Source: a virus (Duplodnaviria > Heunggongvirae > Uroviricota > Caudoviricetes). From it: 23,861 nt of DNA. Below the pieces are notes generated by a model that worked only from the letters and a program-made list of their open reading frames with translations, was not told where the DNA came from and made no database searches. Below, piece after piece: positions 1 through 22,594 of this stretch. Position 1 is the stretch's first letter. Every line of letters begins with the position of its first letter. The DNA lies in IMG/VR virus record IMGVR_UViG_2579778956_000004, positions 1 to 23,861 of that record; one strand, given 5' to 3'. Position numbers and translations under genes: made by a program.

Positions 1-1251
1 GTGCTTACCGATACAAAATTAAAAAACCTCAAGCCGCAGGACAAACTGTACAAGGTCTCCGATCGTGACGGGCTGTATGTAGCTGTGCTTACGTCAGGCA
101 CGGTCTCGTTTCGCTATGACTACCGTATCAACGGTCGCCGCGAAACACTGGTAATCGGGCAGTATGGGCGTGACGGTATCAGCCTGGCAGAAGCGCGAGA
201 AGAACTGATTGCTGCAAAGAAGCTGCTTAAAGCAGGTCAGTCGCCGGCTACGGCTAAACGTGACGGTATCAAAAAGATTCGTGGTGCCGAGACGTTTGCG
301 GTACATACCGACAGTTATATGAAACACGTCATCTTGGCTGACAGTACCCGCGCAATGAAGCAGGCGGTGATCGACCGTGACATACTTCCGGTTCTTGGCA
401 ACAAAATGATGGCTGAAATTACCACATCGATGGTTCGTGATTTGTGTGACCGGATTGTCGAACGCGGTGGTCGGGCAACAGCAGTACAGGCCAGGGAGAT
501 CATCAGCAGCGTATACCGTCACGCCAATGACCGTGGTCATGGTTTGTTTAATCCTGCGGCTGATATTAAGCCTTCATCTATCGCCATATTTAAACCACGA
601 GAGCGAACGCTGACACCAGAAGAAATTGGTCTTTTCTTCCGCACGCTGGATGCCATTGGTGCTATGGGCACTATGAAAATGGCTTTAAAACTGCTGCTTA
701 TCACTATGGTTCGTAAGGGCGAATTCACCAATGCAACGTGGGATGAAATAGATTTTAAAAAATGGACATGGACAATTCCTTCAGACCGCATGAAGGGAAG
801 CCGGGCGCATGTTATTTACCTGCCTAAACAGGCACAGGATATATTGGTCGGGTTGCAGATGTGCGCTGGTGGAAGTGAATATCTGGTTCCTGGTCGTTAC
901 AATTTCCGGAAGCCATTATCTAATGCCGCGCTGAACTCTCTGATCGACAGAACGGTGAAAATAATAAATGAAGATGGTGAGCATATTCAGGATTTTACCG
1001 TACACGATATGCGCCGTACAGCCAGTACGTTGTTGCATGAGGCTGGTTATCCTTCAGACTGGATTGAAAAGGCTCTGGCACATGAGCAGAAAGGTGTGCG
1101 CGCCGTATATAACAAAGCGGAATACGCCAGACAGCGCGCCTACATGTTGCAGCAGTGGGCCGATATGATTGATTCCTGGATTAACGGCGAGCATACGGAT
1201 CTGATTCCGTTCTCCCCGTCGAAGTTTGAGAAGTGGATGGCGGGGGAATAA
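1..1251 (+). CDS. int: Tyrosine recombinase / phage integrase, P4-like family
   Basis: 416-aa ORF starting GTG at position 1. N-terminus MLTDTKLKNLKPQDKLYKVSDRDGLYVAVLTSGTVSFRYDYRINGRRETLVIGQYG matches the arm-binding domain typical of P4-type integrases. C-terminal part has the HDMRRTASTLLHEAGY and RAVYNKAEY region, consistent with the catalytic His-x-x-Arg and Tyr. The true start may lie just outside the window. Confidence 0.88.
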   Translation: MLTDTKLKNLKPQDKLYKVSDRDGLYVAVLTSGTVSFRYDYRINGRRETLVIGQYGRDGISLAEAREELIAAKKLLKAGQSPATAKRDGIKKIRGAETFAVHTDSYMKHVILADSTRAMKQAVIDRDILPVLGNKMMAEITTSMVRDLCDRIVERGGRATAVQAREIISSVYRHANDRGHGLFNPAADIKPSSIAIFKPRERTLTPEEIGLFFRTLDAIGAMGTMKMALKLLLITMVRKGEFTNATWDEIDFKKWTWTIPSDRMKGSRAHVIYLPKQAQDILVGLQMCAGGSEYLVPGRYNFRKPLSNAALNSLIDRTVKIINEDGEHIQDFTVHDMRRTASTLLHEAGYPSDWIEKALAHEQKGVRAVYNKAEYARQRAYMLQQWADMIDSWINGEHTDLIPFSPSKFEKWMAGE

Positions 1252-1254
1252 CGT

Positions 1255-1449
1255 TTAATTATTCTGCTGATTTTCTTCCATCTCGGCTTCTGCTGCCAGT
1301 GATTCAATTTTGTCTGCGAATATTGCTGACAGCGTTGCAAATTCAGCATCAGTGACAGCGGGAATTGGAACAAACCTGATCCCGCTGTGTGCAAGCATGT
1401 TTGCAGTTTCAAGGCATTTCCTTAAATCTGCTGGTGATGCCCGGTTCAT
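1255..1449 (-). CDS. Small hypothetical protein (64 aa), translationally coupled to the methyltransferase
   Basis: ATG at 1449-1447 overlaps the methyltransferase stop in an ATGA arrangement (plus strand 1446-1449 = TCAT). Product MNRASPADLRKCLETANMLAHSGIRFVPIPAV... has an acidic C-terminus. Convergent with int, 3 nt from its stop. No family recognised. Confidence 0.35.
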   Translation of the reverse strand: MNRASPADLRKCLETANMLAHSGIRFVPIPAVTDAEFATLSAIFADKIESLAAEAEMEENQQNN

Positions 1450-2096
1450 GCTGCACGCTCCCGCCCCTGGTTGTCTGTTGGTGACAGCGGAGCATTGCTG
1501 AATGCATTTGTTAATCTGGCAATATCCAACGCGTATCCAGGGTGTAGTTGCACTGCCGGGTCTTCGCACTGATTACCCCAAACATCGAAGCCATGAGACG
1601 ACTGGCGGGCGAACAGTTCAATGCGAGAAACATCGCCTAACAATTGCACAAGTTTTTCACGAACGACATCTGGTTTTCTTGAATGCTCAAGCCGCGGTGC
1701 GGTAAATGACTGAACGATCCCTGCATTAATGCGCGGAGGTAGTTTTCCCTTTACTGCAAACAGGCAATCTTCACTATTGGCGCGAGTCATGTGACCCATA
1801 CCCATAACCAGTTTATCTGGTTGTCGACTACCACATTTTATCCACGTGAATCCCTTCATGGTCATCAGACGGAATCCCCAGGCTTCAACAACTTTTAGTG
1901 CTTCGAGTGGTTGTGTTGGCACCCACCACATGGCCAACAGACAGTTTTCATCGGCCAAATCCCACACAGGAAGGCGGCAGATATCCATCACACTCATAAC
2001 CGGATATTTAAAACCGGCACCGCGATTACCATCTGCGGCTTTGTCCCGGTATACCCAGGGTGGATCTGCATAGATTAGTGTGTATTTCTTAGTCAT
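1446..2096 (-). CDS. MT-A70-family N6-adenine DNA methyltransferase (orphan, phage-type)
   Basis: 216-aa product MTKKYTLIYADPPWVYRDKAADGNRGAGFKYPVMSV... carries the DPPW catalytic motif near the N-terminus, as in MT-A70/Dam-like phage methyltransferases. No adjacent restriction endonuclease gene. Confidence 0.85.
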   Translation of the reverse strand: MTKKYTLIYADPPWVYRDKAADGNRGAGFKYPVMSVMDICRLPVWDLADENCLLAMWWVPTQPLEALKVVEAWGFRLMTMKGFTWIKCGSRQPDKLVMGMGHMTRANSEDCLFAVKGKLPPRINAGIVQSFTAPRLEHSRKPDVVREKLVQLLGDVSRIELFARQSSHGFDVWGNQCEDPAVQLHPGYALDIARLTNAFSNAPLSPTDNQGRERAA

Positions 2097-2388
2097 AAAC
2101 CACCCCGCAACATCCTATACCGCTATAGTCGCCACGGCGAAGGCCGTTACTTTTTGTGATACATTGGTCCCTGCGAACCGCGATCCTTGCACGCTCAACA
2201 TCACCAGAAGCAACATCCATACACTGAAGCCAAAGGTGAGCGGCAATGCGGAACTGCCCTTTTTTCTCTCTTTCAATCGCGCGTTTTTCGATCTCTATCG
2301 CCGCAGGAGTAACGGCGACAATCTTTGACGGACTGCGCATTGAAACCTTGTTCATGTGATATTTTTCAAGTCGGCTTAACTTTCTCAC
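2089..2388 (-). CDS. Hypothetical protein (99 aa)
   Basis: ORF ends 2 nt before the methyltransferase ATG. GTG start at 2388 is preceded by GAGAGGG (SD-like). No family recognised; start uncertain (internal ATG codons exist). Confidence 0.4.
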   Translation of the reverse strand: MRKLSRLEKYHMNKVSMRSPSKIVAVTPAAIEIEKRAIEREKKGQFRIAAHLWLQCMDVASGDVERARIAVRRDQCITKSNGLRRGDYSGIGCCGVVYD

Positions 2389-2497
2389 TTAATCCAACCC
2401 TCTCTGAAAATTAATGCCAGCAGATAAAGCCATGCTGAAACAGAGGCCAGGAATAAGTACCATCCTGACCATTTGCTCCAGTGCCTTAGCAGCACAC

Positions 2498-2746
2498 TCA
2501 TGCTGCGTTGCTCACAGGACGATATACACGTTGCTGAACAGGAGGCTTTTTACCCTGGAACTCTGCCGGGCTTGCTGCCTGACGTTCATCAAGCCAACGC
2601 TCAACTTCATCACGGTTCCATGCGCAGCGTTTATCGGTGATATACCAGCGTTTAGGAAATTCCCCTGCGCGCTCCATACGGTCGATAGTGCTCCATGACA
2701 GTGGCACCACCGCCAGGAGTTCCTTCTTACCTAATGCACCTTTCAT
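2498..2746 (-). CDS. AlpA-family HTH regulator / excisionase-like protein
   Basis: 82-aa product with LLAVVPLSWSTIDRMERAGEFPKRWYITDKRCAWNRDEVERWLDE, the pattern of AlpA/Xis-like prophage DNA-binding proteins. SD GAGAGG precedes the ATG at 2746. Confidence 0.75.
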   Translation of the reverse strand: MKGALGKKELLAVVPLSWSTIDRMERAGEFPKRWYITDKRCAWNRDEVERWLDERQAASPAEFQGKKPPVQQRVYRPVSNAA

Positions 2747-2795
2747 AAATACCTCTCTTGGTTGCAGTGCGGCGCGCGTGGCGCCGCGGTGGTGG

Positions 2796-3239
2796 TTACA
2801 TAGATGTTTCGTTTAATTCTTCCCGACGAACGCTGTAAACGTCGGTGGCTTTTGCCAGCAGTTCGTCATCATCTGAAAGTTTTTGTGCAATGTATTTGTA
2901 AGCCTTATCCAGTTCGGAGACAGTGCTGTAATTCATCGCTGCGCTGGTATCCGCTACATCACGAAGAAATGCTTCTTCGTCAGCTTTACCTTGTTTCGTC
3001 CGACGATCGAACTTCGGTGAAACAATGAAGCGTTTGTCGAATTCTCCAGGCTCCAGAAGCAGACAGTGCAATGCGGTTCCAATATCCAGTGCAGACTTTT
3101 TCTCTTCGTCTTCTGGTGCTGCCTGGACCCATTTAAGAAGCGCCGGATTCTTGGCAACCATGTCCAGTTGCGACTTACTCACGCCGTCACCGGCGTGGTA
3201 GTCTTCGTTGCTGATGTCGAAATAAATTCCCGGTTTCAT
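2796..3239 (-). CDS. RecE-like / PD-(D/E)XK-family nuclease N-terminal domain protein, probably truncated
   Basis: N-terminus MKPGIYFDISNEDYHAGDGVSKSQLDMVAKNPALLKW...GTALHCLLLEPGEF resembles the N-terminal region of exodeoxyribonuclease-VIII-like prophage nucleases. Only 147 aa, whereas this family is usually about twice as long as I recall it. Confidence 0.45.
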   Translation of the reverse strand: MKPGIYFDISNEDYHAGDGVSKSQLDMVAKNPALLKWVQAAPEDEEKKSALDIGTALHCLLLEPGEFDKRFIVSPKFDRRTKQGKADEEAFLRDVADTSAAMNYSTVSELDKAYKYIAQKLSDDDELLAKATDVYSVRREELNETSM

Positions 3240-16350: not shown

Positions 16351-16524
16351 GTGTTTTTAATTATTTTGAGTGTGATAATTTCTGTTGGGTTGTTATTTAT
16401 TGACCGCTACAAATATTTTCTTAACCCTCAGACTCAAGCTATTTGCTGGTTCATCTTTGTTGTGCAGGGAGTAGTTCTTGTTGCAAGCCTTATTGAGGGG
16501 AGGCCTCTTATTTTTACTGGGTAA
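16351..16524 (+). CDS. Small hydrophobic protein (57 aa), putative membrane protein
   Basis: Not in the ORF track. GTG 16351 with AGGAAG 4 nt upstream. Product VFLIILSVIISVGLLFIDRYKYFLNPQTQAICWFIFVVQGVVLVASLIEGRPLIFTG has two predicted hydrophobic helices. Confidence 0.3.
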   Translation: MFLIILSVIISVGLLFIDRYKYFLNPQTQAICWFIFVVQGVVLVASLIEGRPLIFTG

Positions 16525-16536
16525 ATAGGTGACTAC

Positions 16537-16833
16537 ATGCAAGCTATAGGATTCATTGTTTATATCGTCGTTGGTCTTTTTCAGTTGGCAGCAATTATGG
16601 CTGGGCTTGAATCATGGTGGGGATTGCACTGGATAATTGCAGCCCCCATTGCTTTCATCGTGAGCTATATTCCATTTGTTGGAGCGATTGTTGGTATGGT
16701 TGGCGCTGTGGATGTATGGCGGTGGGAGTGGTGGCAGGCTGGCCTTCTCTTCTTTGGTGGGATCATCTTTGCTATTGTCTGCGGTGGAATGTCATCATTT
16801 TTCGAATGGCTATCATTCAGAAAAGGGACGTGA
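16537..16833 (+). CDS. Small integral membrane protein (98 aa)
   Basis: Three hydrophobic segments (IGFIVYIVVGLFQLAAIMAGL; WIIAAPIAFIVSYIPFVGAIVGMVGAV; GLLFFGGIIFAIVCGG) with Trp-rich loops. Followed by a terminator. Confidence 0.5.
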   Translation: MQAIGFIVYIVVGLFQLAAIMAGLESWWGLHWIIAAPIAFIVSYIPFVGAIVGMVGAVDVWRWEWWQAGLLFFGGIIFAIVCGGMSSFFEWLSFRKGT

Positions 16834-16842
16834 CATGTCACA

Positions 16843-16866
16843 GGCCGCTTTCGCGGCCTTTTCTTT
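16843..16866 (+). terminator. Rho-independent terminator after the small membrane genes
   Basis: GGCCGC-TTTC-GCGGCC stem-loop followed by TTTTCTTT. It overlaps the stop codon of the convergent minus-strand gene. Confidence 0.5.
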
Positions 16867-17122
16867 ATGTGGTTTGTTTTCGTAATTGTTCGGCACAATA
16901 GTCTAGATGTGTTTGCAGATCCTGCATAGACATCTGTGAGCTGGTGACGTAGTTAATCAGTGCAGTCAGTTCGGCAAGTGGGCCATCGACATTAAATCCA
17001 TCTTTATCGAGATCCCGGAGTAATTTCATCAAGTGCGATCCATCCACCAGTGACCTGACGCCTCCCGGCGTGTGAATCCTTTCGGTAAATCCGTCTTCCA
17101 GTGGATAGTGATACTGCTGCAT
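16865..17122 (-). CDS. Small SOS-regulated protein (85 aa), candidate antirepressor
   Basis: Start assigned to ATG at 17122 (MQQYHYPLEDGFTERIHTPGGVRSLVDGSHLMKLLRDLDKDGF...) with GGAG 8 nt upstream. The longer 126-aa ORF in the track would read through the LexA box and operator. A near-consensus LexA box sits about 20 nt upstream of this ATG. Confidence 0.55.
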   Translation of the reverse strand: MQQYHYPLEDGFTERIHTPGGVRSLVDGSHLMKLLRDLDKDGFNVDGPLAELTALINYVTSSQMSMQDLQTHLDYCAEQLRKQTT

Positions 17123-17141
17123 CTTATCTTCTCCATGCAAT

Positions 17142-17161
17142 AACTGTATATTTATACAGTA
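17142..17161. promoter_or_regulatory. LexA (SOS) box
   Basis: AACTGTATATTTATACAGTA matches the E. coli LexA consensus TACTGTATATATATACAGTA at 18 of 20 positions, with the CTGT-N8-ACAG core perfect. On the minus strand a TATAAA -10-like hexamer lies inside the box. Confidence 0.75.
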
Positions 17162-17198
17162 GCAAATAATTTGTTTGCTATCCAGCACGTTTTGCAAA

Positions 17199-17213
17199 TT
17201 ACCTGAAAGGTAA
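17199..17213. promoter_or_regulatory. Operator-like palindrome TTACC-N5-GGTAA between the SOS gene and the tailspike gene
   Basis: TTACCTGAAAGGTAA, a perfect inverted repeat of the same type as at the immunity region, followed by the shared 11-mer ATCTATTCGTA (17215-17225). Confidence 0.45.
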
Positions 17214-17317
17214 TATCTATTCGTATTTACAGTCTTTCTATCCATATGTGGTTTTGCAGGTAATAGAATAACCAGATATGCGGCGCAACGGGTGCTGCGA
17301 CTATCTGGAGATTTAAC

Positions 17318-19480
17318 ATGACGGTCTCAACCGAAGTTGACCACAACGAATACACAGGTAACGGCGTTACGACATCGTTTCCGTATACTTTTCGAATTTT
17401 CAGAAAATCAGACCTGGTTGTTCAGGTGTCTGACCTGAACGGGAACATCACAGAGCTGATTCTTGATACTGATTATACAGTTACGGGTGCTGGTGGGTAT
17501 TCTGGTGGCAATGTAATACTGATGTCGGCACTTGCAAACGGATACCAAATTTCCATTTCGCGTGAGTTGCCGGTGACGCAGGAAACCGATCTCCGTAATC
17601 AGGGTAAGTTCTTCGCAGAAGTGCATGAGGATGCTTTTGATAAACTGACTATGCTGATTCAGCAGGTACGCAGCTGGTTAAGTCTGGCCCTCAGAAAGCC
17701 TTCGTTCGTGGCTAACTATTATGATGCTCTTAATAACTACATCAGAAACCTGCGAGATCCTTCACGCCCGCAGGATGCGGCAACTAAAAATTATGTTGAT
17801 AGCGTTGCAGATACAAACCTCAACAAAACACTAAGAACACCGGAAGCTATTCAATCTCTTCCTGATGCGATTTCCAGGGCAAACAAAATTGTTGCTTTTG
17901 ATAGCGCTGGTCAGCCATTTGCAACACTACCCCCATCAGGTAGCGCCACCGATGTGTTAATTGAGCTGGCAAAGCCTACTGGAGCGGGATTATCAGGGTT
18001 CGATAAGTCAGTTGATTACGCCGGTGGTACGGTTGGTAGTGAGCTAAAAAATGTTATATTCGTCAATCCTGATATGTATTCAACATTGCAGGAGGCGATT
18101 GATTATGCAGCATCTTTAACAGGGCTGGAACATTCTCCAAGTAGTGCAGCTGGGCATCCAGACTGGATACAACCAAATACTGTATGCAAAGTTGTCAGAT
18201 TAAATGGAAAGAAATACCCCATAAACACAACATTACATGTTTACGGTGATGTAAGCATAGATGCAGAATTTGGAGGGGTATATCTCACGGATGACTTCAT
18301 AGCAGATTCTTCTGGGTATGCTGTTAAATGCGATAAAGGAACAGGTAATCAATACGCTGGGCACATTAGCAATCTTTTAATTGACGCCCGCGCAAAGACT
18401 GTTAATGGATTTAAAATATCTGATGGTTATGCCAACAAGTTAGATGGCATTTACGTAGCCAACGTTGATGGTCATGGCATTCATATTGCTGGAGGCATGG
18501 GTGTGCACCTCATGAAATTCTATGCTATCAGCGTATTAAAACCTACGAATCCACTTAGTCAGGCACACATCATAGAAGGAAGCGATCACCATATTAGTAT
18601 GGGTGAAGGCAGATATTTCAGATTCGGAACGTGGGTTAGGAATGGTGGAAATAACAGGCTTAATAACGTACATAACTGGGGAATGTATGACGATACAGTG
18701 GCCGACCAAAACTCAAGAATGAAATGTTGCTTTGTTGTACAAAATTCTATAAACAACTCATTTAATCAATGTTTTGCAGATTCACCATCAAAATGGGATT
18801 ACACAAAAACAAATTTAGCTCCTGTTGATGGTTATATTAATGGTGGGATTGGTTTCTTCGTTGATAGTGGCGCTACCGGGAATATATTCTCTCAGTGTCA
18901 AACGTTCGTTAACATGAATGCTTATAATTCTGCCGGTCTCTCAAGTTATACTGCGGCGTTATATCCATTTCTTGTAGGTAGTGCGAATTGTGGATTTTCT
19001 TTATGTGAAAACTCAAACAGCCCAGCATGGGTTGGTAAATGTATAAATCATGTTTCTGGGGTGGCTCAAGAGTTCACAAATGCTGTGGGGACAAAAAATT
19101 TCGTTGGCATAGAAGACGACATGCATGCTAACAGGACTTTTTTCAGAAAAGGAGTTGGTGTTCCAATTATCTCGTATGTTATTAAAACAGAAACAGCAGG
19201 AAGCACTTATGTTGCTGATTTTTCATTGTCTTCTTATATTTCAATAACATGCAACTCTAACATTAGTATATCCGTTGCGACACTCAGTAACCCGCCAATA
19301 GGATATACTGAATGTACACTTTCAGTGTTTTCCGCATCATCAAAACTGATCACCTTTACAGGATCTGTTACGCTTGCGAAAAATACACCATCACTAAATG
19401 AATCCGGAACTCAGGTGTTCCGGATGTCAACTGCTGATGGCGGGGCTACTTGGTATGCGAGACTTGTAGCGAACTATTAA
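17318..19480 (+). CDS. Tailspike / tail fiber with T7-gp17-like N-terminal anchor domain and a distinct C-terminal receptor-binding region
   Basis: 720 aa; SD GGAG. N-terminus EYTGNGVTTSFPYTFRIFRKSDLVVQVSDLNGNITELILDTDYTV follows the conserved pattern of the T7 gp17 N-terminal domain shared by podovirus tailspikes. The C-terminal two-thirds are visibly more AT-rich and Asn/Gly/Ser-rich, consistent with a beta-helical receptor-binding domain. Confidence 0.8.
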   Translation: MTVSTEVDHNEYTGNGVTTSFPYTFRIFRKSDLVVQVSDLNGNITELILDTDYTVTGAGGYSGGNVILMSALANGYQISISRELPVTQETDLRNQGKFFAEVHEDAFDKLTMLIQQVRSWLSLALRKPSFVANYYDALNNYIRNLRDPSRPQDAATKNYVDSVADTNLNKTLRTPEAIQSLPDAISRANKIVAFDSAGQPFATLPPSGSATDVLIELAKPTGAGLSGFDKSVDYAGGTVGSELKNVIFVNPDMYSTLQEAIDYAASLTGLEHSPSSAAGHPDWIQPNTVCKVVRLNGKKYPINTTLHVYGDVSIDAEFGGVYLTDDFIADSSGYAVKCDKGTGNQYAGHISNLLIDARAKTVNGFKISDGYANKLDGIYVANVDGHGIHIAGGMGVHLMKFYAISVLKPTNPLSQAHIIEGSDHHISMGEGRYFRFGTWVRNGGNNRLNNVHNWGMYDDTVADQNSRMKCCFVVQNSINNSFNQCFADSPSKWDYTKTNLAPVDGYINGGIGFFVDSGATGNIFSQCQTFVNMNAYNSAGLSSYTAALYPFLVGSANCGFSLCENSNSPAWVGKCINHVSGVAQEFTNAVGTKNFVGIEDDMHANRTFFRKGVGVPIISYVIKTETAGSTYVADFSLSSYISITCNSNISISVATLSNPPIGYTECTLSVFSASSKLITFTGSVTLAKNTPSLNESGTQVFRMSTADGGATWYARLVANY

Positions 19481-20594
19481 CTTTTGAGTTGAATCTCAAC
19501 TCAATGTTTTTATAGGTTATTAGTGATATTATCACAGTAATCATAAATGTAATTATTGACATAATGAAGTAGGAAAGGATTCCTATTTCATATAGGTTAA
19601 ACCCAATTATTTTAAATACGTATAAAGATAGATATATAATAGCTTGGTGGCTAAGGTATATGCTATAGCTAATCATACCAATCAATACTATGTTGCTGGA
19701 TTGAAGAAACTTAGGCTTAATGTAGCAAATGCTGGAGAATAATATTGTTACTAAAATAAATCTATAAATCCCGTATCCGTCATCTTTTTGATAAATGCAG
19801 GTGAGCAATGTTAATATTGCTGTAATTGATATAATCAACTTCCAAGATTTTTTATCATGGTTTAGTGAATTATCGTAAACAACTTTACCAACCGCACCAC
19901 TAATGAAAAATAAAAACATATCTGTATTTAAATTAGACTTTTCTATAGTATAAATACCAATAATAAACAGTGTTATGGAAATATATTTTTCATTTTTATA
20001 AAAAAGAGATATAGCTACAATTGATATATAGAAAATCCATTCATACGGCAGAGTCCATGATACCACGCCAATACTGTGTATCCATGAGTCTTTGAAGAAA
20101 ATTCCACCGCCAAGAAACCCAAACGCTAATAGCTGAATAAGTGCTTTTCTGTAATCATCAAGACTAGCTCCATCAGACATAAATATTATAAACACTGCCA
20201 TGTTTATCAATGCAAAAAATAAAAACGCAGGTGCTAGTCGTTTTATTCTCTTCATCATAAAATCATCCGCGCTTTTTACATTTTTTATTCTTGATAAAAA
20301 AAGGAACCCGGTAATTGCGAAAAATATCTCCACCCCTAATGAGCCAAAATTATCATATATCGGCATTATTTTATATGGAATGTTTTGGTTTGTTATCCCT
20401 ATCGTAGGTAAGTAGTAAGCAAAATGATTGAAAAAAACCATAATACATGCCACACCCCTAAGACCTTCAAGCCACAAAATATTGTTTTGTGAATTGTTTA
20501 CTATCCCTGATTTCACAGGAATAAGAAATACAAAAAAAATAAAAATTAAGAATGCAATAAGCTGATATACGCTAAAATCATAGAAAAAACTCAT
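19446..20594 (-). CDS. Acyltransferase-3 family membrane protein, O-antigen acetyltransferase-like (lysogenic conversion candidate)
   Basis: 382-aa polytopic membrane protein with LWLEGLRGVACIMVFFNHFAY near the N-terminus, typical of Oac/OafA-type acyltransferases. Strongly AT-rich relative to flanks. SD AGGA precedes the ATG at 20594. The 3' end overlaps the tailspike 3' end by 35 nt. Confidence 0.8.
   Translation of the reverse strand: MSFFYDFSVYQLIAFLIFIFFVFLIPVKSGIVNNSQNNILWLEGLRGVACIMVFFNHFAYYLPTIGITNQNIPYKIMPIYDNFGSLGVEIFFAITGFLFLSRIKNVKSADDFMMKRIKRLAPAFLFFALINMAVFIIFMSDGASLDDYRKALIQLLAFGFLGGGIFFKDSWIHSIGVVSWTLPYEWIFYISIVAISLFYKNEKYISITLFIIGIYTIEKSNLNTDMFLFFISGAVGKVVYDNSLNHDKKSWKLIISITAILTLLTCIYQKDDGYGIYRFILVTILFSSICYIKPKFLQSSNIVLIGMISYSIYLSHQAIIYLSLYVFKIIGFNLYEIGILSYFIMSIITFMITVIISLITYKNIELRFNSKVNSSLQVSHTK
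19484..19511 (+). terminator. Putative rho-independent terminator after the tailspike gene
   Basis: TTGAGTTGA-ATC-TCAACTCAA hairpin (9-bp stem) followed by TGTTTTT, starting 4 nt after the tailspike stop. It lies inside the 3' end of the convergent acyltransferase ORF. Confidence 0.45.
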
Positions 20595-20772
20595 TACTCA
20601 ATCCTGTTTTATACGTAATTTATTTCATTTTAAATGCTAAACCATCCACAGTCACTCAGTTCTATGCCGCGTTTGTGTTTTTTGTGGCTAGACATCAGGT
20701 AATTTACTCCATATATGGTTTATTGTGTATGATGAACTCACCAACTAAGGGGGTTTTTATGCACAGTAAACG

Positions 20773-21481: not shown

Positions 21482-22100
21482 ACAATTCCAGCGAGCTGCT
21501 GGTATTAGCGAGGCGCTGGCCGCACGCTGGTTCTCGCATATAACTTCTGCGATGAAAGAGTTTGGTATCAGCAAACCAGAAGATCTGGCAATGTTTATTG
21601 CTCAGGTCGGGCATGAGTCTGGAGGCTTCACCCGGTTGCAGGAAAATTTCAACTACAGCGTCAGCGGACTGGCTAATTTCGTTCGGGCTGGGCGTCTCAC
21701 TCAGGGACAGGCCAACGCATTGGGGCGTCGTGCTGGTGAACCACCATTGCCACTTGAGCGCCAGAGAGCGATCGCCAATCTGGTGTACAGCAAACGCATG
21801 GGTAACAATGCCCCAGGCGATGGATGGAATTACCGTGGGCGCGGACTTATCCAGATTACCGGTTTGAATAACTATCGTGACTGCGGAAACGGCCTGAAAG
21901 TGGACCTGCTGGAGAGTCCTGAACTGCTGGCGCAGGACGAATACGCGGCTCGTAGCGCGGCGTGGTTTTTTGCCAGCAAAGGCTGCATGAAGTATACCGG
22001 CGATATTGCACGTGTAACTCTGATTATCAATGGTGGCCGGAACGGCATTGATGACCGGCGCGCGCGATACATCACTGCCAGTAAGGTGCTGGCGGTATGA
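21471..22100 (+). CDS. Endolysin, glycoside hydrolase family 19 (chitinase-like)
   Basis: Start taken at ATG 21471 ([11 protein letters not shown]...); the upstream extension in the ORF track overlaps the holin-like gene. Contains [10 protein letters not shown] and [16 protein letters not shown], characteristic of GH19-type phage endolysins. Confidence 0.85.
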
Positions 22101-22594
22101 TCTGGGCATTCGTAAAAGCATACTGGAAACAGTTGCTTATCGTGGCGGTGCTTGCTGTTCTGGTCATATCAGGAGTTGTTGCCTGGAATGTACACGGTAG
22201 CCGTCAGTACGACGCCGGGTATGCGCAGGCACAGGAAGATCAGAAGCAGGCTGATGATAAGGCCAGGTCACAACGTGATCAGGAGAAAACACAAATTGAA
22301 CGTGAAGCACAATCCCGTATCGATGTGGCGCGTGTTGATGCTGAGCATGCTAATGCCGCTGCTGACAGCCTGCGCGCCGAGCTTGACAAAACCAAGCGAC
22401 TCGCCGAACACTATACCGGATCTTTCCCCACTGGCACGCCAGCCAGCAAGGTCATCGGTGTGCTCGCCGACATGCTTGAAGAAAGCAATCGAGTTTACAA
22501 CGCAACAGCAGCTGAGGCTGAAAAGTATCGGATTGCAGGAGAATCCTGCGAACAGCAATACGATTCACTGAGGAAGCAAAAATCGTGGCACTGA
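22097..22594 (+). CDS. Inner-membrane spanin (Rz-like)
   Basis: ATG overlaps the endolysin stop (ATGA). N-terminal transmembrane helix [18 protein letters not shown] followed by a charged coiled-coil-like periplasmic domain. Confidence 0.7.
22323..22571 (+). CDS. Outer-membrane lipoprotein spanin (Rz1-like), embedded in the Rz-like gene in another frame
   Basis: [41 protein letters not shown]... has a signal peptide with an LLTAC lipobox and a Pro-rich mature part, nested wholly within 22097-22594. Start is uncertain (ATG at 22323, 22338, 22347 or 22353). Confidence 0.5.
   Translation: MWRVLMLSMLMPLLTACAPSLTKPSDSPNTIPDLSPLARQPARSSVCSPTCLKKAIEFTTQQQLRLKSIGLQENPANSNTIH

What the first reader, a model, noticed from the sequence alone, without database searches (positions are those of the whole stretch)
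19446..20594. AT-rich acyltransferase-3 gene convergent with and overlapping the tailspike: candidate O-antigen-modifying conversion gene
A 382-aa polytopic acyltransferase-3 protein is encoded on the opposite strand directly after the tailspike and overlaps its 3' end by 35 nt. Temperate podoviruses often carry O-antigen acetyltransferases next to the tailspike, where they modify the receptor and block superinfection. The strong AT bias suggests horizontal acquisition.
Basis: partly seen in the sequence, partly recalled or inferred. Interest (0 to 1): 0.58.

Follow-up and report, generated by a model that had tools for sequence, protein, structure and literature searches.

The report
Prophage O-antigen acyltransferase paired with tailspike
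An E. coli prophage carries an intact membrane acyltransferase gene tail-to-tail with its tailspike gene, most likely to acetylate the host's O-antigen so that phages using that receptor cannot infect; this is a new example of a well-known trick, not a new mechanism.

Summary
A 382-aa ORF (19446-20594, minus strand) is a full-length acyltransferase-3 (AT3) protein. It is convergent with the 720-aa tailspike gene (17318-19480), overlaps it by 35 nt, and has 30% GC against 47% for the window.

The window is a phiV10/epsilon15-like prophage of E. coli 2017.15.01CC, inserted between guaA and yfgI. The AT3 keeps the family's essential motifs and is under purifying selection (dN/dS 0.10-0.16).

It travels with the receptor-binding part of the tailspike as one cassette (17962-20616). 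That cassette recurs at 94% identity in an unrelated tape-measure prophage and at 69% in a Proteus prophage.

All five complete E. coli genomes carrying the gene have the same O-antigen genotype (O19-type wzy, present in 80 of 5,426 genomes). Related tailspike domains in other strains of that genotype are followed by gtrABC instead.

The layout matches Sf6 oac and phiV10 oac, both shown experimentally to acetylate O-antigen and block reinfection.

Verdict: a very likely O-antigen O-acetyltransferase for lysogenic conversion. It is a new member of a known kind, and its biochemistry is untested. The AT bias is normal for this gene class; the mosaic boundaries are the evidence for horizontal exchange.

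The parts
19446..20594 (-). AT3-only acyltransferase gene (382 aa), candidate O-antigen O-acetyltransferase
   Evidence: ORF; Pfam PF01757 E=2.8e-29; PHROG 3333; invariant R46-x10-H57, V88/F91/F92 (VEIFFAITGF), R116-x-x-R119 and Y313-L314-x-H316; dN/dS 0.16 and 0.10; AF2 model with pTM 0.77 and about 11 TM helices
17318..19480 (+). Tailspike gene (720 aa): N-terminal particle-binding part (to about 17961) shared with phiV10/epsilon15-like phages, plus an exchangeable receptor-binding part (17962-19480)
   Evidence: PHROG 1640 and others; PDB Dpo31 tailspike N-terminus; backbone homology ends at 17800-17988; receptor-binding part is 73-75% identical to tail spike proteins of lytic phages; weak beta-helix fold matches
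17962..20616 (.). Mobile cassette: tailspike receptor-binding part plus the AT3 gene with its ribosome-binding site
   Evidence: 94% nucleotide identity to L009, a tape-measure prophage beside thrS; 69% to a Proteus mirabilis prophage (18084-20486). Homology to phiV10, PAS61, 90-3040 and O26 prophages stops at 17800-17988 and resumes at 20695-20709
19446..19480 (.). 35-nt overlap of the two convergent 3' ends; it encodes the non-conserved AT3 tail VNSSLQVSHTK and the tailspike end ATWYARLVANY
   Evidence: The same 35-nt overlap occurs in L009 and L031-33, 14 nt in Proteus, 27 nt in L019; other relatives have gaps of 12-44 nt
19484..19504 (+). 9-bp stem hairpin followed by TGTTTTTATA, terminator-like for the tailspike transcript, lying inside the last AT3 codons (NIELRFNSK)
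   Evidence: Consensus scan; RNAfold. An equivalent hairpin directly follows the tailspike stop in every relative examined, and is intergenic where the genes do not overlap; annotated as a terminator in Sf6. Function not shown.
20602..20605 (-). Shine-Dalgarno-like AGGA, 7 nt upstream of the AT3 start codon
   Evidence: Read from the sequence; lies within the part of the cassette shared with L009
20627..20655 (-). Sigma-70-like promoter candidate GTGACT-17-TAAAAT upstream of the AT3 gene (weak, 9 of 12 matches)
   Evidence: Consensus scan only; the number of such sites in the region is not above the shuffled expectation (11 against 9.0 +/- 2.7). It lies outside the segment shared with L009. 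Inferred, not shown.

Best explanation
The gene encodes a stand-alone acyltransferase-3 inner-membrane enzyme. The lysogen is proposed to use it to O-acetylate its own O-antigen, the polysaccharide that the prophage's tailspike recognises. By analogy with other AT3 enzymes, acetyl-CoA binds on the cytoplasmic side (RxxR and R-x10-H motifs), the acetyl group passes through the membrane domain, and it is transferred to a sugar hydroxyl of the O-unit on the periplasmic face. The modified O-antigen would no longer be bound or cleaved by tailspikes with this receptor-binding domain. The lysogen would then be protected against reinfection by the same phage and against the other temperate and lytic phages that carry this domain. 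The gene and the receptor-binding domain travel together as one exchangeable cassette. Shown here: family membership, intact motifs, purifying selection, cassette co-mobility, restriction to one O-antigen genotype, and the same layout as proven systems. Inferred: the substrate, the acyl group, expression in the lysogen and the exclusion phenotype.
For: (1) Full-length AT3 domain. The essential motifs named in the AT3 review (PMC9558356) are invariant in the subfamily: R46-x10-H57, R116-x-x-R119 and VxxFFxI(T)GF. (2) dN/dS is 0.16 against the 94% E. coli homologue and 0.10 against the Proteus homologue. (3) Same slot and convergent orientation as phiV10 oac, which modifies O157 antigen and confers immunity to phiV10 (PMC11854483), and as Sf6 oac. 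Sf6 Oac is the nearest characterised relative (62 bits against the subfamily profile; 23% identity over 352 aa). (4) Cassette 17962-20616 is shared with an unrelated E. coli prophage backbone and a Proteus prophage. The AT3 and the receptor-binding domain diverge in step: 94% with 98%, and 62% with 72%. (5) Of 10 AT3 subfamily clusters examined, 8 are convergent with a confirmed tailspike or tail fibre, on epsilon15-like, P22-like and Tail_spike_N backbones. One of these, and one further cluster, lie beside gtr O-antigen glucosylation genes. (6) The gene occurs in 5 of 5,426 complete E. coli genomes. All four checked directly carry the wzy shared with O19-serotyped strains; the fifth, YJR, was not checked. 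That wzy is in 80 of 5,426 genomes. (7) A 70-74% identical receptor-binding domain occurs in four more genomes. Three have that same wzy genotype, and the two loci examined have a convergent gtrC-gtrB-gtrA in place of the AT3. The fourth genome has lost its whole O-antigen cluster. (8) The AT3 ORF is intact and identical in two independently degraded copies of the prophage.
Against: No biochemical or phenotypic data exist for this protein or any close homologue. Identity to every characterised O-antigen acetyltransferase is low (23% or less), and AT3 enzymes act on many glycans (PMC9558356). The conserved serine of the VxxFFxxSG motif is a threonine here. The promoter is only a weak consensus match, not above chance. 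[quoted passage not shown] The serogroup label is also uncertain: a review lists O19 among L-Rha-containing O-units, yet this cluster has no rml genes, and one strain sharing the wzy is named CE-O153H30. The five carriers are not phylogenetically independent, and their AT3 genes are 100% identical. That weakens both the genotype association and the 'retained in decayed prophages' argument.
Confidence: 0.75

Rival explanations
1. The AT3 acylates a different envelope glycan (enterobacterial common antigen, a capsule or K antigen, colanic acid, LPS core, periplasmic glucans or peptidoglycan) instead of the O-antigen repeat unit.
For: AT3 proteins have all these substrates (PMC9558356). Sequence identity to any O-antigen enzyme is 23% or less. 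Tailspikes with beta-helix folds can also target capsules.
Against: The subfamily profile matches WecH only over its N-terminal 64 residues and does not match OpgC. There is no SGNH domain as in the peptidoglycan enzyme OatA (382 aa). The gene and its receptor-binding domain track one O-antigen wzy genotype. gtrABC, which is O-antigen-specific, replaces or accompanies it in the same slot.
Confidence: 0.1
2. It does modify the O-antigen, but the selected benefit is not exclusion of phages with the cognate tailspike. Instead the benefit is antigenic change, serum or immune evasion, or gut competitiveness. The cognate tailspike may tolerate the modification.
For: O-antigen acetylation alters immunogenicity in Salmonella and Shigella (PMC9558356). 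The AT3 is retained in prophages that can no longer make virions.
Against: In every tested analogue (Sf6, phiV10, BTP1) the modification blocks the cognate phage. The tight co-inheritance and co-divergence with the receptor-binding domain is what a matched receptor/modifier pair predicts.
Confidence: 0.1
3. The enzyme transfers an acyl group other than acetyl (for example succinyl or propionyl).
For: Some AT3 enzymes are succinyl or longer-chain acyl transferases (PMC9558356 abstract and sections).
Against: The nearest characterised relatives (Sf6 Oac, and the AT3 domain of a phage AT3-SGNH protein annotated as O-antigen acetylase) are acetyl enzymes, and the succinyltransferase OpgC does not match.
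Confidence: 0.04
4. The gene is a silent or decaying passenger with no current function.
For: AT-rich genes in E. coli are often silenced (general knowledge, not tested here). The promoter evidence is weak.
Against: The ORF is intact, with all essential motifs, in every copy. dN/dS is 0.10-0.16. A Shine-Dalgarno sequence is present. The ORF survives in degraded prophages.
Confidence: 0.03

Closest known systems
Oac (OacA) of Shigella phage Sf6
   Same: A stand-alone AT3 of similar size, encoded convergently just downstream of the tailspike gene with a terminator hairpin between them. It acetylates the O-antigen and blocks the phage's own tailspike (PMC9558356). It is the best-scoring characterised relative of this subfamily, with a full-length match of 62 bits.
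   Different: Only 23% identity. Sf6 Oac lacks the extra N-terminal helix (residues 9-24 here). Sf6 is P22-like, with oac between the tailspike and int and a 33-nt gap instead of an overlap. The host O-antigens differ.
Oac of Escherichia phage phiV10 (Uetakevirus)
   Same: Same phage backbone (about 93% identity in the flanks), same slot between tailspike and holin, same convergent orientation, same low GC (0.309) and AT3-only architecture. Shown experimentally to modify the O157 antigen and give immunity to phiV10.
   Different: Not orthologous. phiV10 Oac scores -2.7 bits against this subfamily's profile and is closer to WecH. The tailspike receptor-binding parts are unrelated. There is a 12-nt gap instead of an overlap.
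gtrABC O-antigen glucosylation cassettes of temperate phages (P22, SfV and others)
   Same: They occupy the same convergent position after a tailspike with a related (70-74% identical) receptor-binding domain in E. coli of the same O-genotype. A distant homologue of this AT3 sits directly beside gtrABC. The presumed purpose is the same: receptor modification by the lysogen.
   Different: A different chemistry and three proteins (glucosylation through undecaprenyl-phosphate-glucose) instead of a single acetyl-CoA-dependent membrane enzyme.
OafA / OafB (GtrC family II, prophage BTP1) of Salmonella
   Same: AT3-family O-antigen acetyltransferases. OafB is prophage-encoded and protects against the BTP1 tailspike. 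They share the R/K-x10-H and RxxR motifs.
   Different: They are AT3-SGNH fusions. This protein has no SGNH domain (382 aa, domain covering 40-357).
Human HGSNAT (lysosomal acetyl-CoA:alpha-glucosaminide N-acetyltransferase)
   Same: The only solved structures with a meaningful fold match to the AF2 model (8jkv, 8vli; probability 0.98-1.0, TM about 0.4). It is a transmembrane acetyl-CoA-dependent acetyl transferase, which supports the trans-membrane transfer mechanism.
   Different: The match is very distant (11-13% identity, E about 0.02). HGSNAT is eukaryotic, an N-acetyltransferase, and has extra domains.

Membership tests
Acyltransferase-3 (Pfam PF01757) | Full-length match to the family model above the curated threshold | tested here: met
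   102.6 bits against a cut-off of 31; residues 40-357 cover model positions 2-325 of 326
Acyltransferase-3 (Pfam PF01757) | R/K-x10-H motif in the first core helix (essential residues; PMC9558356) | tested here: met
   R46 and H57 are invariant in alignments A1 and A2
Acyltransferase-3 (Pfam PF01757) | RxxR motif (essential; PMC9558356) | tested here: met
   R116-I-K-R119 is invariant
Acyltransferase-3 (Pfam PF01757) | V-x-x-F-F-x-(I/V/L)-S-G-(F/W/Y) motif | tested here: inconclusive
   V88-E-I-F-F-A-I-T95-G-F is present, but the serine is a threonine throughout this subfamily (T95 invariant in A2). The effect of Ser to Thr is unknown; Ser to Leu inactivates Lag-1.
Acyltransferase-3 (Pfam PF01757) | Polytopic membrane protein with about 10 TM helices | tested here: met
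   The AF2 model (pLDDT 74, pTM 0.77) has 10 core helices plus one extra N-terminal helix at 9-24; weak fold match to HGSNAT
Phage-encoded O-antigen O-acetyltransferase for lysogenic conversion (Sf6 Oac type) | Stand-alone AT3 encoded on a temperate phage next to, and convergent with, the tailspike gene | tested here: met
   Complete prophage of about 36 kb from int to Rz; same layout as Sf6 and phiV10
Phage-encoded O-antigen O-acetyltransferase for lysogenic conversion (Sf6 Oac type) | Detectable homology to a characterised member | tested here: met
   Sf6 Oac scores 61.8 bits against the subfamily profile over its whole length; blastp gives 23% identity over 352 aa. This is weak and shows relatedness, not orthology.
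Phage-encoded O-antigen O-acetyltransferase for lysogenic conversion (Sf6 Oac type) | Specific association with one host O-antigen type | tested here: met
   The gene is in 5 genomes only. The four checked directly carry the O19-type wzy, which is in 80 of 5,426 genomes. The carriers are partly related, so this is not a formal probability.
Phage-encoded O-antigen O-acetyltransferase for lysogenic conversion (Sf6 Oac type) | O-acetylation of the O-antigen demonstrated chemically | not testable with these tools
   Needs NMR or MS of LPS with and without the gene
Phage-encoded O-antigen O-acetyltransferase for lysogenic conversion (Sf6 Oac type) | Confers resistance to the cognate phage or tailspike | not testable with these tools
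   Needs adsorption, plaque and tailspike cleavage assays
Orthologue of phiV10 Oac | Significant full-length sequence similarity to phiV10 Oac | tested here: not met
   Profile score -2.7 bits; blastp 21.5% over 274 aa, E=0.097; no hit by tblastn against phages at 1e-5
AT3-SGNH O-acetyltransferases (OafA, OafB, OatA) | C-terminal periplasmic SGNH domain | tested here: not met
   The protein ends 25 residues after the AT3 domain, and no second Pfam domain is found
E. coli housekeeping AT3 enzymes WecH (ECA) and OpgC (periplasmic glucans) | Orthology or full-length similarity, and core-genome distribution | tested here: not met
   WecH matches only over its first 64 residues (38.8 bits); OpgC scores -11 bits. 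The gene is present in only 5 of 5,426 genomes, always in a prophage.

The most novel reading that the evidence does not exclude
The tailspike receptor-binding domain and its O-antigen modifier form a self-contained, portable 'key plus lock-changer' cassette. It moves between unrelated phage architectures (epsilon15-like, P22-like and tape-measure prophages) and between genera (Escherichia, Proteus). In this reading, the interlocked 3' ends have a function: the AT3 ORF reads through the tailspike's terminator hairpin into the tailspike ORF. That keeps the two genes inseparable by recombination. It also lets late read-through transcription run antisense to the modifier gene, switching off receptor modification during lytic growth.
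Probability: 0.15. Interest if true: 0.5.

Novelty: new member of a known kind. Interest (0 to 1): 0.3.

Why it matters
If confirmed, this gene would define an acetylated variant of one E. coli O-antigen type (shared with O19-serotyped strains, including the ETEC challenge strain TW11681). That matters for serotyping, O-antigen vaccines and qPCR or serology-based tracking. It also matters for phage therapy or biocontrol, because the same receptor-binding domain occurs in large lytic phages that such lysogens might resist. More generally, the locus is a clean natural example of a receptor-binding domain and a receptor-modifying gene exchanged as one unit, with acetylation and glucosylation as alternative partners for related domains. 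The mechanism itself has been textbook knowledge since Sf6 and phiV10, so the finding adds a case and not a concept.

Tried and rejected
(1) tblastn of the AT3 against 50,697 phage records found only a Halomonas phage oatA at 25% identity, so no isolated phage carries a close relative.

(2) NCBIfam gave no named family, and a PDB sequence search gave nothing.

(3) The idea that the lysogens have a broken O-antigen flippase (RefSeq 'partial wzx' plus IS1) was rejected. The same annotation is present in the O19-serotyped strain SMS-3-5, and the region reads as one continuous ORF of about 400 aa.

(4) The AT bias as evidence of foreign origin was rejected as a stand-alone argument.

(5) The tailspike receptor-binding domain structure prediction was poor (pLDDT 56). 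Its fold matches are only weakly indicative of a beta-helix depolymerase, so its enzymatic activity remains undetermined. No esterase or SGNH signal was seen.

(6) The O19 O-antigen structure could not be retrieved. The review has no supplements held, PMID 22015401 is not held, and a glycotyping preprint does not mention O19.

(7) No Rfam family occurs in the window, and no meaningful repeats flank the cassette.

(8) My first guess at the TST3 O-antigen locus was on the wrong side of the chromosome; the second attempt found it.
Full report
OBSERVATION. The window holds a 382-codon ORF at 19446-20594 on the minus strand and a 720-codon ORF at 17318-19480 on the plus strand. The two are convergent and share 35 nt, 19446-19480 (codons). 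With the local base composition, the chance of 382 codons without a stop is 3.6e-14, and 1,000 shuffles never exceeded 167 codons. The minus-strand product matches Pfam Acyl_transf_3 end to end (E=2.8e-29, 102.6 bits against a cut-off of 31) and PHROG 3333 'O-acetyltransferase' (E=3e-45). The plus-strand product is a tailspike. It matches PHROG 1640 and many tail-fibre or tail-spike PHROGs through its N-terminal 220 residues. Its N-terminus resembles the solved tailspike Dpo31. Its C-terminal 505 residues are 73-75% identical to annotated tail spike proteins of large lytic phages. GC is 0.301 for the acyltransferase gene, 0.403 for the C-terminal tailspike part, and 0.46-0.54 for the surrounding phage genes.

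WHERE IT IS. The window is 100% identical to the chromosome of E. coli 2017.15.01CC (NZ_AP021890.1), a human faecal ST201 isolate from Viet Nam. The element is a prophage of about 36 kb between guaA and yfgI. It has an integrase, regulators, replication genes, terminase, portal, capsid and internal virion proteins, followed by the tailspike, the acyltransferase, two holins, a GH19 endolysin and an Rz spanin. Its backbone is that of the genus Uetakevirus (phiV10, epsilon15, PAS61), with 80-95% nucleotide identity in the flanks.

THE PROTEIN. An alignment with its homologues shows invariant R46 and H57 (the R/K-x10-H motif) and R116 and R119 (RxxR). It also shows V88, F91 and F92 within VEIFFAITGF, and a C-terminal Y313-L314-x-H316. 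The first two motifs are the residues the AT3 review singles out as essential and probably acyl-CoA-binding. The third is the motif whose serine is needed in Legionella Lag-1 (PMC9558356). Here that serine is a threonine throughout the subfamily, a conservative change of unknown effect. There is no SGNH domain, so this is an 'AT3-only' enzyme like Sf6 Oac. An AlphaFold model (pLDDT 74, pTM 0.77) has ten core helices plus an extra N-terminal helix at residues 9-24. A profile search shows that this N-terminal extension is covered by most of the top subfamily hits. The only structurally meaningful PDB neighbours are cryo-EM structures of human HGSNAT, a transmembrane acetyl-CoA-dependent acetyltransferase (probability 0.98-1.0, TM about 0.4, E about 0.02). 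That match is weak, but it fits the accepted AT3 mechanism. The gene is under purifying selection: dN/dS is 0.16 against a 94% identical E. coli homologue and 0.10 against a 62% identical Proteus homologue.

RELATIVES AND THEIR CONTEXTS. The word-indexed search found only 12 clusters: E. coli at 92-94%, Proteus mirabilis at 62%, and metagenomic proteins at 29-36%. The exhaustive profile search shows the subfamily is larger, with 712 representatives at E<=1e-30 within about 100,000 AT3 proteins. I examined ten clusters in their genomic context.
- The 92% allele lies in the same kind of prophage at the same site, with the same 35-nt overlap.
- The 94% allele lies in a different prophage that has a tape-measure protein and a Tail_spike_N tailspike. 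It sits at the prophage end beside thrS, again with a 35-nt overlap.
- The Proteus homologue lies in an epsilon15-like prophage and overlaps a 716-aa tailspike by 14 nt.
- The homologues at 29-36% identity (P0006, P0008, P0009, P0011) lie convergent with tailspikes of P22-like, epsilon15-like and Tail_spike_N types, with a 27-nt overlap or gaps of 29-44 nt.
- One of these (P0006) is immediately beside gtrA-gtrB-gtrC.
- Another (P0012) has gtrA-gtrB and bor nearby, but no tailspike is visible on its short contig.
- Two further members found by the profile search are convergent with a tailspike (L041) or with a large truncated ORF that I could not identify (L039).
In total, eight of ten are tail-to-tail with a confirmed tailspike or tail fibre.

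THE CASSETTE. Pairwise blastn shows that window 17962-20616 is 94% identical to the thrS-side prophage. This segment runs from about codon 215 of the tailspike through the acyltransferase to 22 nt upstream of its start. Window 18084-20486 is 69% identical to the Proteus prophage. Homology to phiV10, PAS61 and two other E. coli Uetakevirus-like prophages stops at 17800-17988 and resumes at 20695-20709. The receptor-binding part of the tailspike and the acyltransferase gene are therefore exchanged as one unit, and they diverge in step. The AT3 at 94% goes with a last-400-residue tailspike identity of 98%. The AT3 at 62% goes with 72%. AT3 homologues at 36% or below sit beside unrelated receptor-binding domains. 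In 558 E. coli genomes with related flanks, this slot holds various cargo. Examples are another acyltransferase, gtrA plus a glycosyltransferase remnant (O26 strains), BRO-N and DUF4760 genes, an SGNH hydrolase and a YafO toxin.

LINK TO THE O-ANTIGEN. The acyltransferase gene occurs in only five of 5,426 complete E. coli genomes. I located the galF-gnd O-antigen cluster of 2017.15.01CC. Its wzy is present at 99% identity or more in 80 genomes. These include SMS-3-5 (O19:H34; PMC4237132) and TW11681 (O19:H45; PMC6192177). The published O19-wzy qPCR primers and probe match it. FG31-1 is in that list, and F1005 and XPFI_3_2 have the same cluster with identical protein accessions. YJR, a near-duplicate of XPFI_3_2, was not checked. 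F1005 has different his alleles from the others, so at least two lineages are involved.

A diverged copy of the receptor-binding region (about 80% nucleotide identity, 70-74% amino-acid identity) occurs in four more genomes. Three of them carry the same wzy (H47, H48, H63). In the two loci I examined, the tailspike is followed by a convergent gtrC-gtrB-gtrA operon where the acyltransferase sits here: MLI106K1, on a P22-like backbone, and TST3, on a tape-measure backbone. TST3, the fourth genome, has lost its entire O-antigen cluster (wcaM-IS1-gnd). So phages that use this receptor-binding domain family live in one O-antigen genotype, and behind the tailspike they carry either an acetyl- or a glucosyl-modifying system. 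This is the strongest contextual evidence that the substrate is the O-antigen.

Two caveats apply to the name. [quoted passage not shown] One strain sharing the wzy is called CE-O153H30. The association does not depend on the label, but the acceptor sugar cannot be named.

COMPARISON WITH PROVEN SYSTEMS. phiV10 has its oac in the same slot and orientation. Expression of that gene modifies the O157 antigen and prevents phiV10 infection (Perry et al. 2009, as summarised in PMC11854483). Sf6 has tailspike, terminator, convergent oac, promoter and then int. Sf6 Oac acetylates rhamnose and blocks the Sf6 endorhamnosidase. I scored a small panel against the subfamily profile:
- Sf6 Oac: 62 bits over its full length; 23% identity by blastp.
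- AT3 domain of the PAS61 AT3-SGNH 'O-antigen acetylase': 64 bits.
- WecH: 39 bits, over its N-terminal 64 residues only.
- phiV10 Oac: -2.7 bits.
- OpgC: -11 bits.
The gene is therefore a distant Sf6-Oac-like paralogue that occupies the phiV10 oac slot. It is not an orthologue of phiV10 oac.

THE OVERLAP AND EXPRESSION SIGNALS. A 9-bp-stem hairpin followed by a T-run lies at 19484-19504, four bases after the tailspike stop and inside the last codons of the acyltransferase. Every relative has a comparable hairpin directly after the tailspike stop. Where the two genes are separated (Sf6, phiV10, L016, L022, L026), it is intergenic. Where they overlap (this window, L009, L019), the acyltransferase ORF reads through it. 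The eleven residues encoded by the overlap (VNSSLQVSHTK) are not conserved in the family. The overlap therefore looks like a by-product of compaction, not a functional element, although a regulatory role cannot be excluded. Upstream of the gene there is an AGGA 7 nt before the ATG, and a weak -35/-10 match at 20655-20627. Promoter-like sites are no more frequent here than in shuffled sequence, so expression in the lysogen is inferred from analogy only.

AT BIAS. The 30% GC equals that of phiV10 oac (0.309), of another prophage acyltransferase (0.333), and of the host's own wzy and O-antigen cluster (0.311 and 0.321). Low GC is a class property of O-antigen genes, so by itself it says little about recent transfer. 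The mosaic boundaries, and the presence of the cassette in Proteus, are the real evidence of horizontal movement.

DEGRADED COPIES. In FG31-1, a deletion of about 17 kb joins the small terminase gene to a 5'-truncated tailspike. In XPFI_3_2, several structural genes are truncated, the tailspike lacks its start and an IS3 interrupts the endolysin. In both, the acyltransferase ORF is intact and identical. This fits a host-beneficial gene. However, all five copies are 100% identical, so there has been little time for decay and the argument is weak.

VERDICT. The gene is a genuine, intact, selected AT3-only acyltransferase. It forms a mobile cassette with the receptor-binding domain of the prophage tailspike and is confined to one O-antigen genotype. 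The best explanation (confidence about 0.75) is lysogenic conversion by O-acetylation of the O-antigen, which excludes phages carrying this receptor-binding domain. It is a new member of a well-known kind. The substrate, the acyl group, expression and the phenotype all remain to be shown experimentally.

Noticed in passing
window 17800-20709 and the equivalent slot in L002, L003, L004, L005: The segment between the conserved tailspike N-terminus and the first holin is a hypervariable cargo slot in 558 E. coli genomes. It holds other acyltransferases, gtrA plus a glycosyltransferase remnant (O26 strains), BRO-N and DUF4760 genes, an SGNH/GDSL hydrolase or a YafO toxin.
   Followed up: partly
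L034 4616-9214 (MLI106K1) and L035 4568-9214 (TST3): A receptor-binding domain 70-74% identical to the one in the window is followed by a convergent gtrC-gtrB-gtrA instead of an AT3, on a P22-like and a tape-measure backbone. Acetylation and glucosylation are therefore alternative partners for related tailspike domains.
   Followed up: yes
L038 22791-26612 (E. coli TST3): The whole O-antigen cluster, including galF and gne, is missing: wcaM is followed by an IS1 and then gnd. This strain still carries a prophage with the related tailspike and gtrABC.
   Followed up: partly
L012 37963-39141 (also L013, L014, L015): RefSeq annotates the wzx of this O-antigen cluster as a partial flippase pseudogene plus a separate hypothetical protein. 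The region translates as one uninterrupted ORF of about 400 aa, so this is probably an annotation artefact. An IS1A sits between wzx and gnd in every copy seen.
   Followed up: partly
L012 37963-46000: A naming discrepancy. The wzy is identical to that of the O19-serotyped strains SMS-3-5 and TW11681. However, the cluster has no rml genes although a review lists O19 among O-units containing L-Rha, and one strain sharing the wzy is named CE-O153H30. O19 strains are also reported to cross-react with Klebsiella O1 D-galactan II through wbbY/wbbZ.
   Followed up: partly
window 22323-22571 (+), inside the Rz gene 22097-22594: An embedded +1-frame ORF with a lipoprotein signal ([17 protein letters not shown], lipobox LLTAC) is the expected Rz1 o-spanin, as annotated in phiV10 (PhiV10p30a). 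It is not annotated in the RefSeq record of this strain.
   Followed up: partly
L036 4863-6521 (phage BME3); also YX22, vB_CECAV_050, vB_SalM-ps4: The same receptor-binding domain (73-75% amino-acid identity) is one of several tail spikes of large lytic phages of about 150 kb (Justusliebigvirus and relatives). Lysogens carrying the AT3 might also resist these phages.
   Followed up: no
L043 11313-13857 (FG31-1) and L044 3975-14087, 16113-18003 (XPFI_3_2): Two independently degraded copies of the prophage keep the AT3 gene intact. One has a deletion from the small terminase gene into the tailspike. The other has multiple truncations and an IS3 in the endolysin. In these strains the truncated tailspike is not annotated at all.
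   Followed up: yes
window 19446-20594, residues 1-39 of the protein: The protein has an extra hydrophobic N-terminal helix (residues 9-24) ahead of the AT3 core. Sf6 Oac, phiV10 Oac and WecH lack it, but it is covered by most of the top profile hits of the subfamily. It would place the N-terminus on the opposite side of the membrane from classical 10-TM Oac proteins.
   Followed up: partly
window 16351-17245: Between the last internal virion protein gene and the tailspike lie two small membrane-protein ORFs (16351-16524 and 16537-16833; the latter matches PHROG 3075). There is also a minus-strand ORF (16865-17245; PHROG 450, with weak similarity to an anti-repressor C-terminus) that RefSeq calls shorter (16865-17122).
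   Followed up: no
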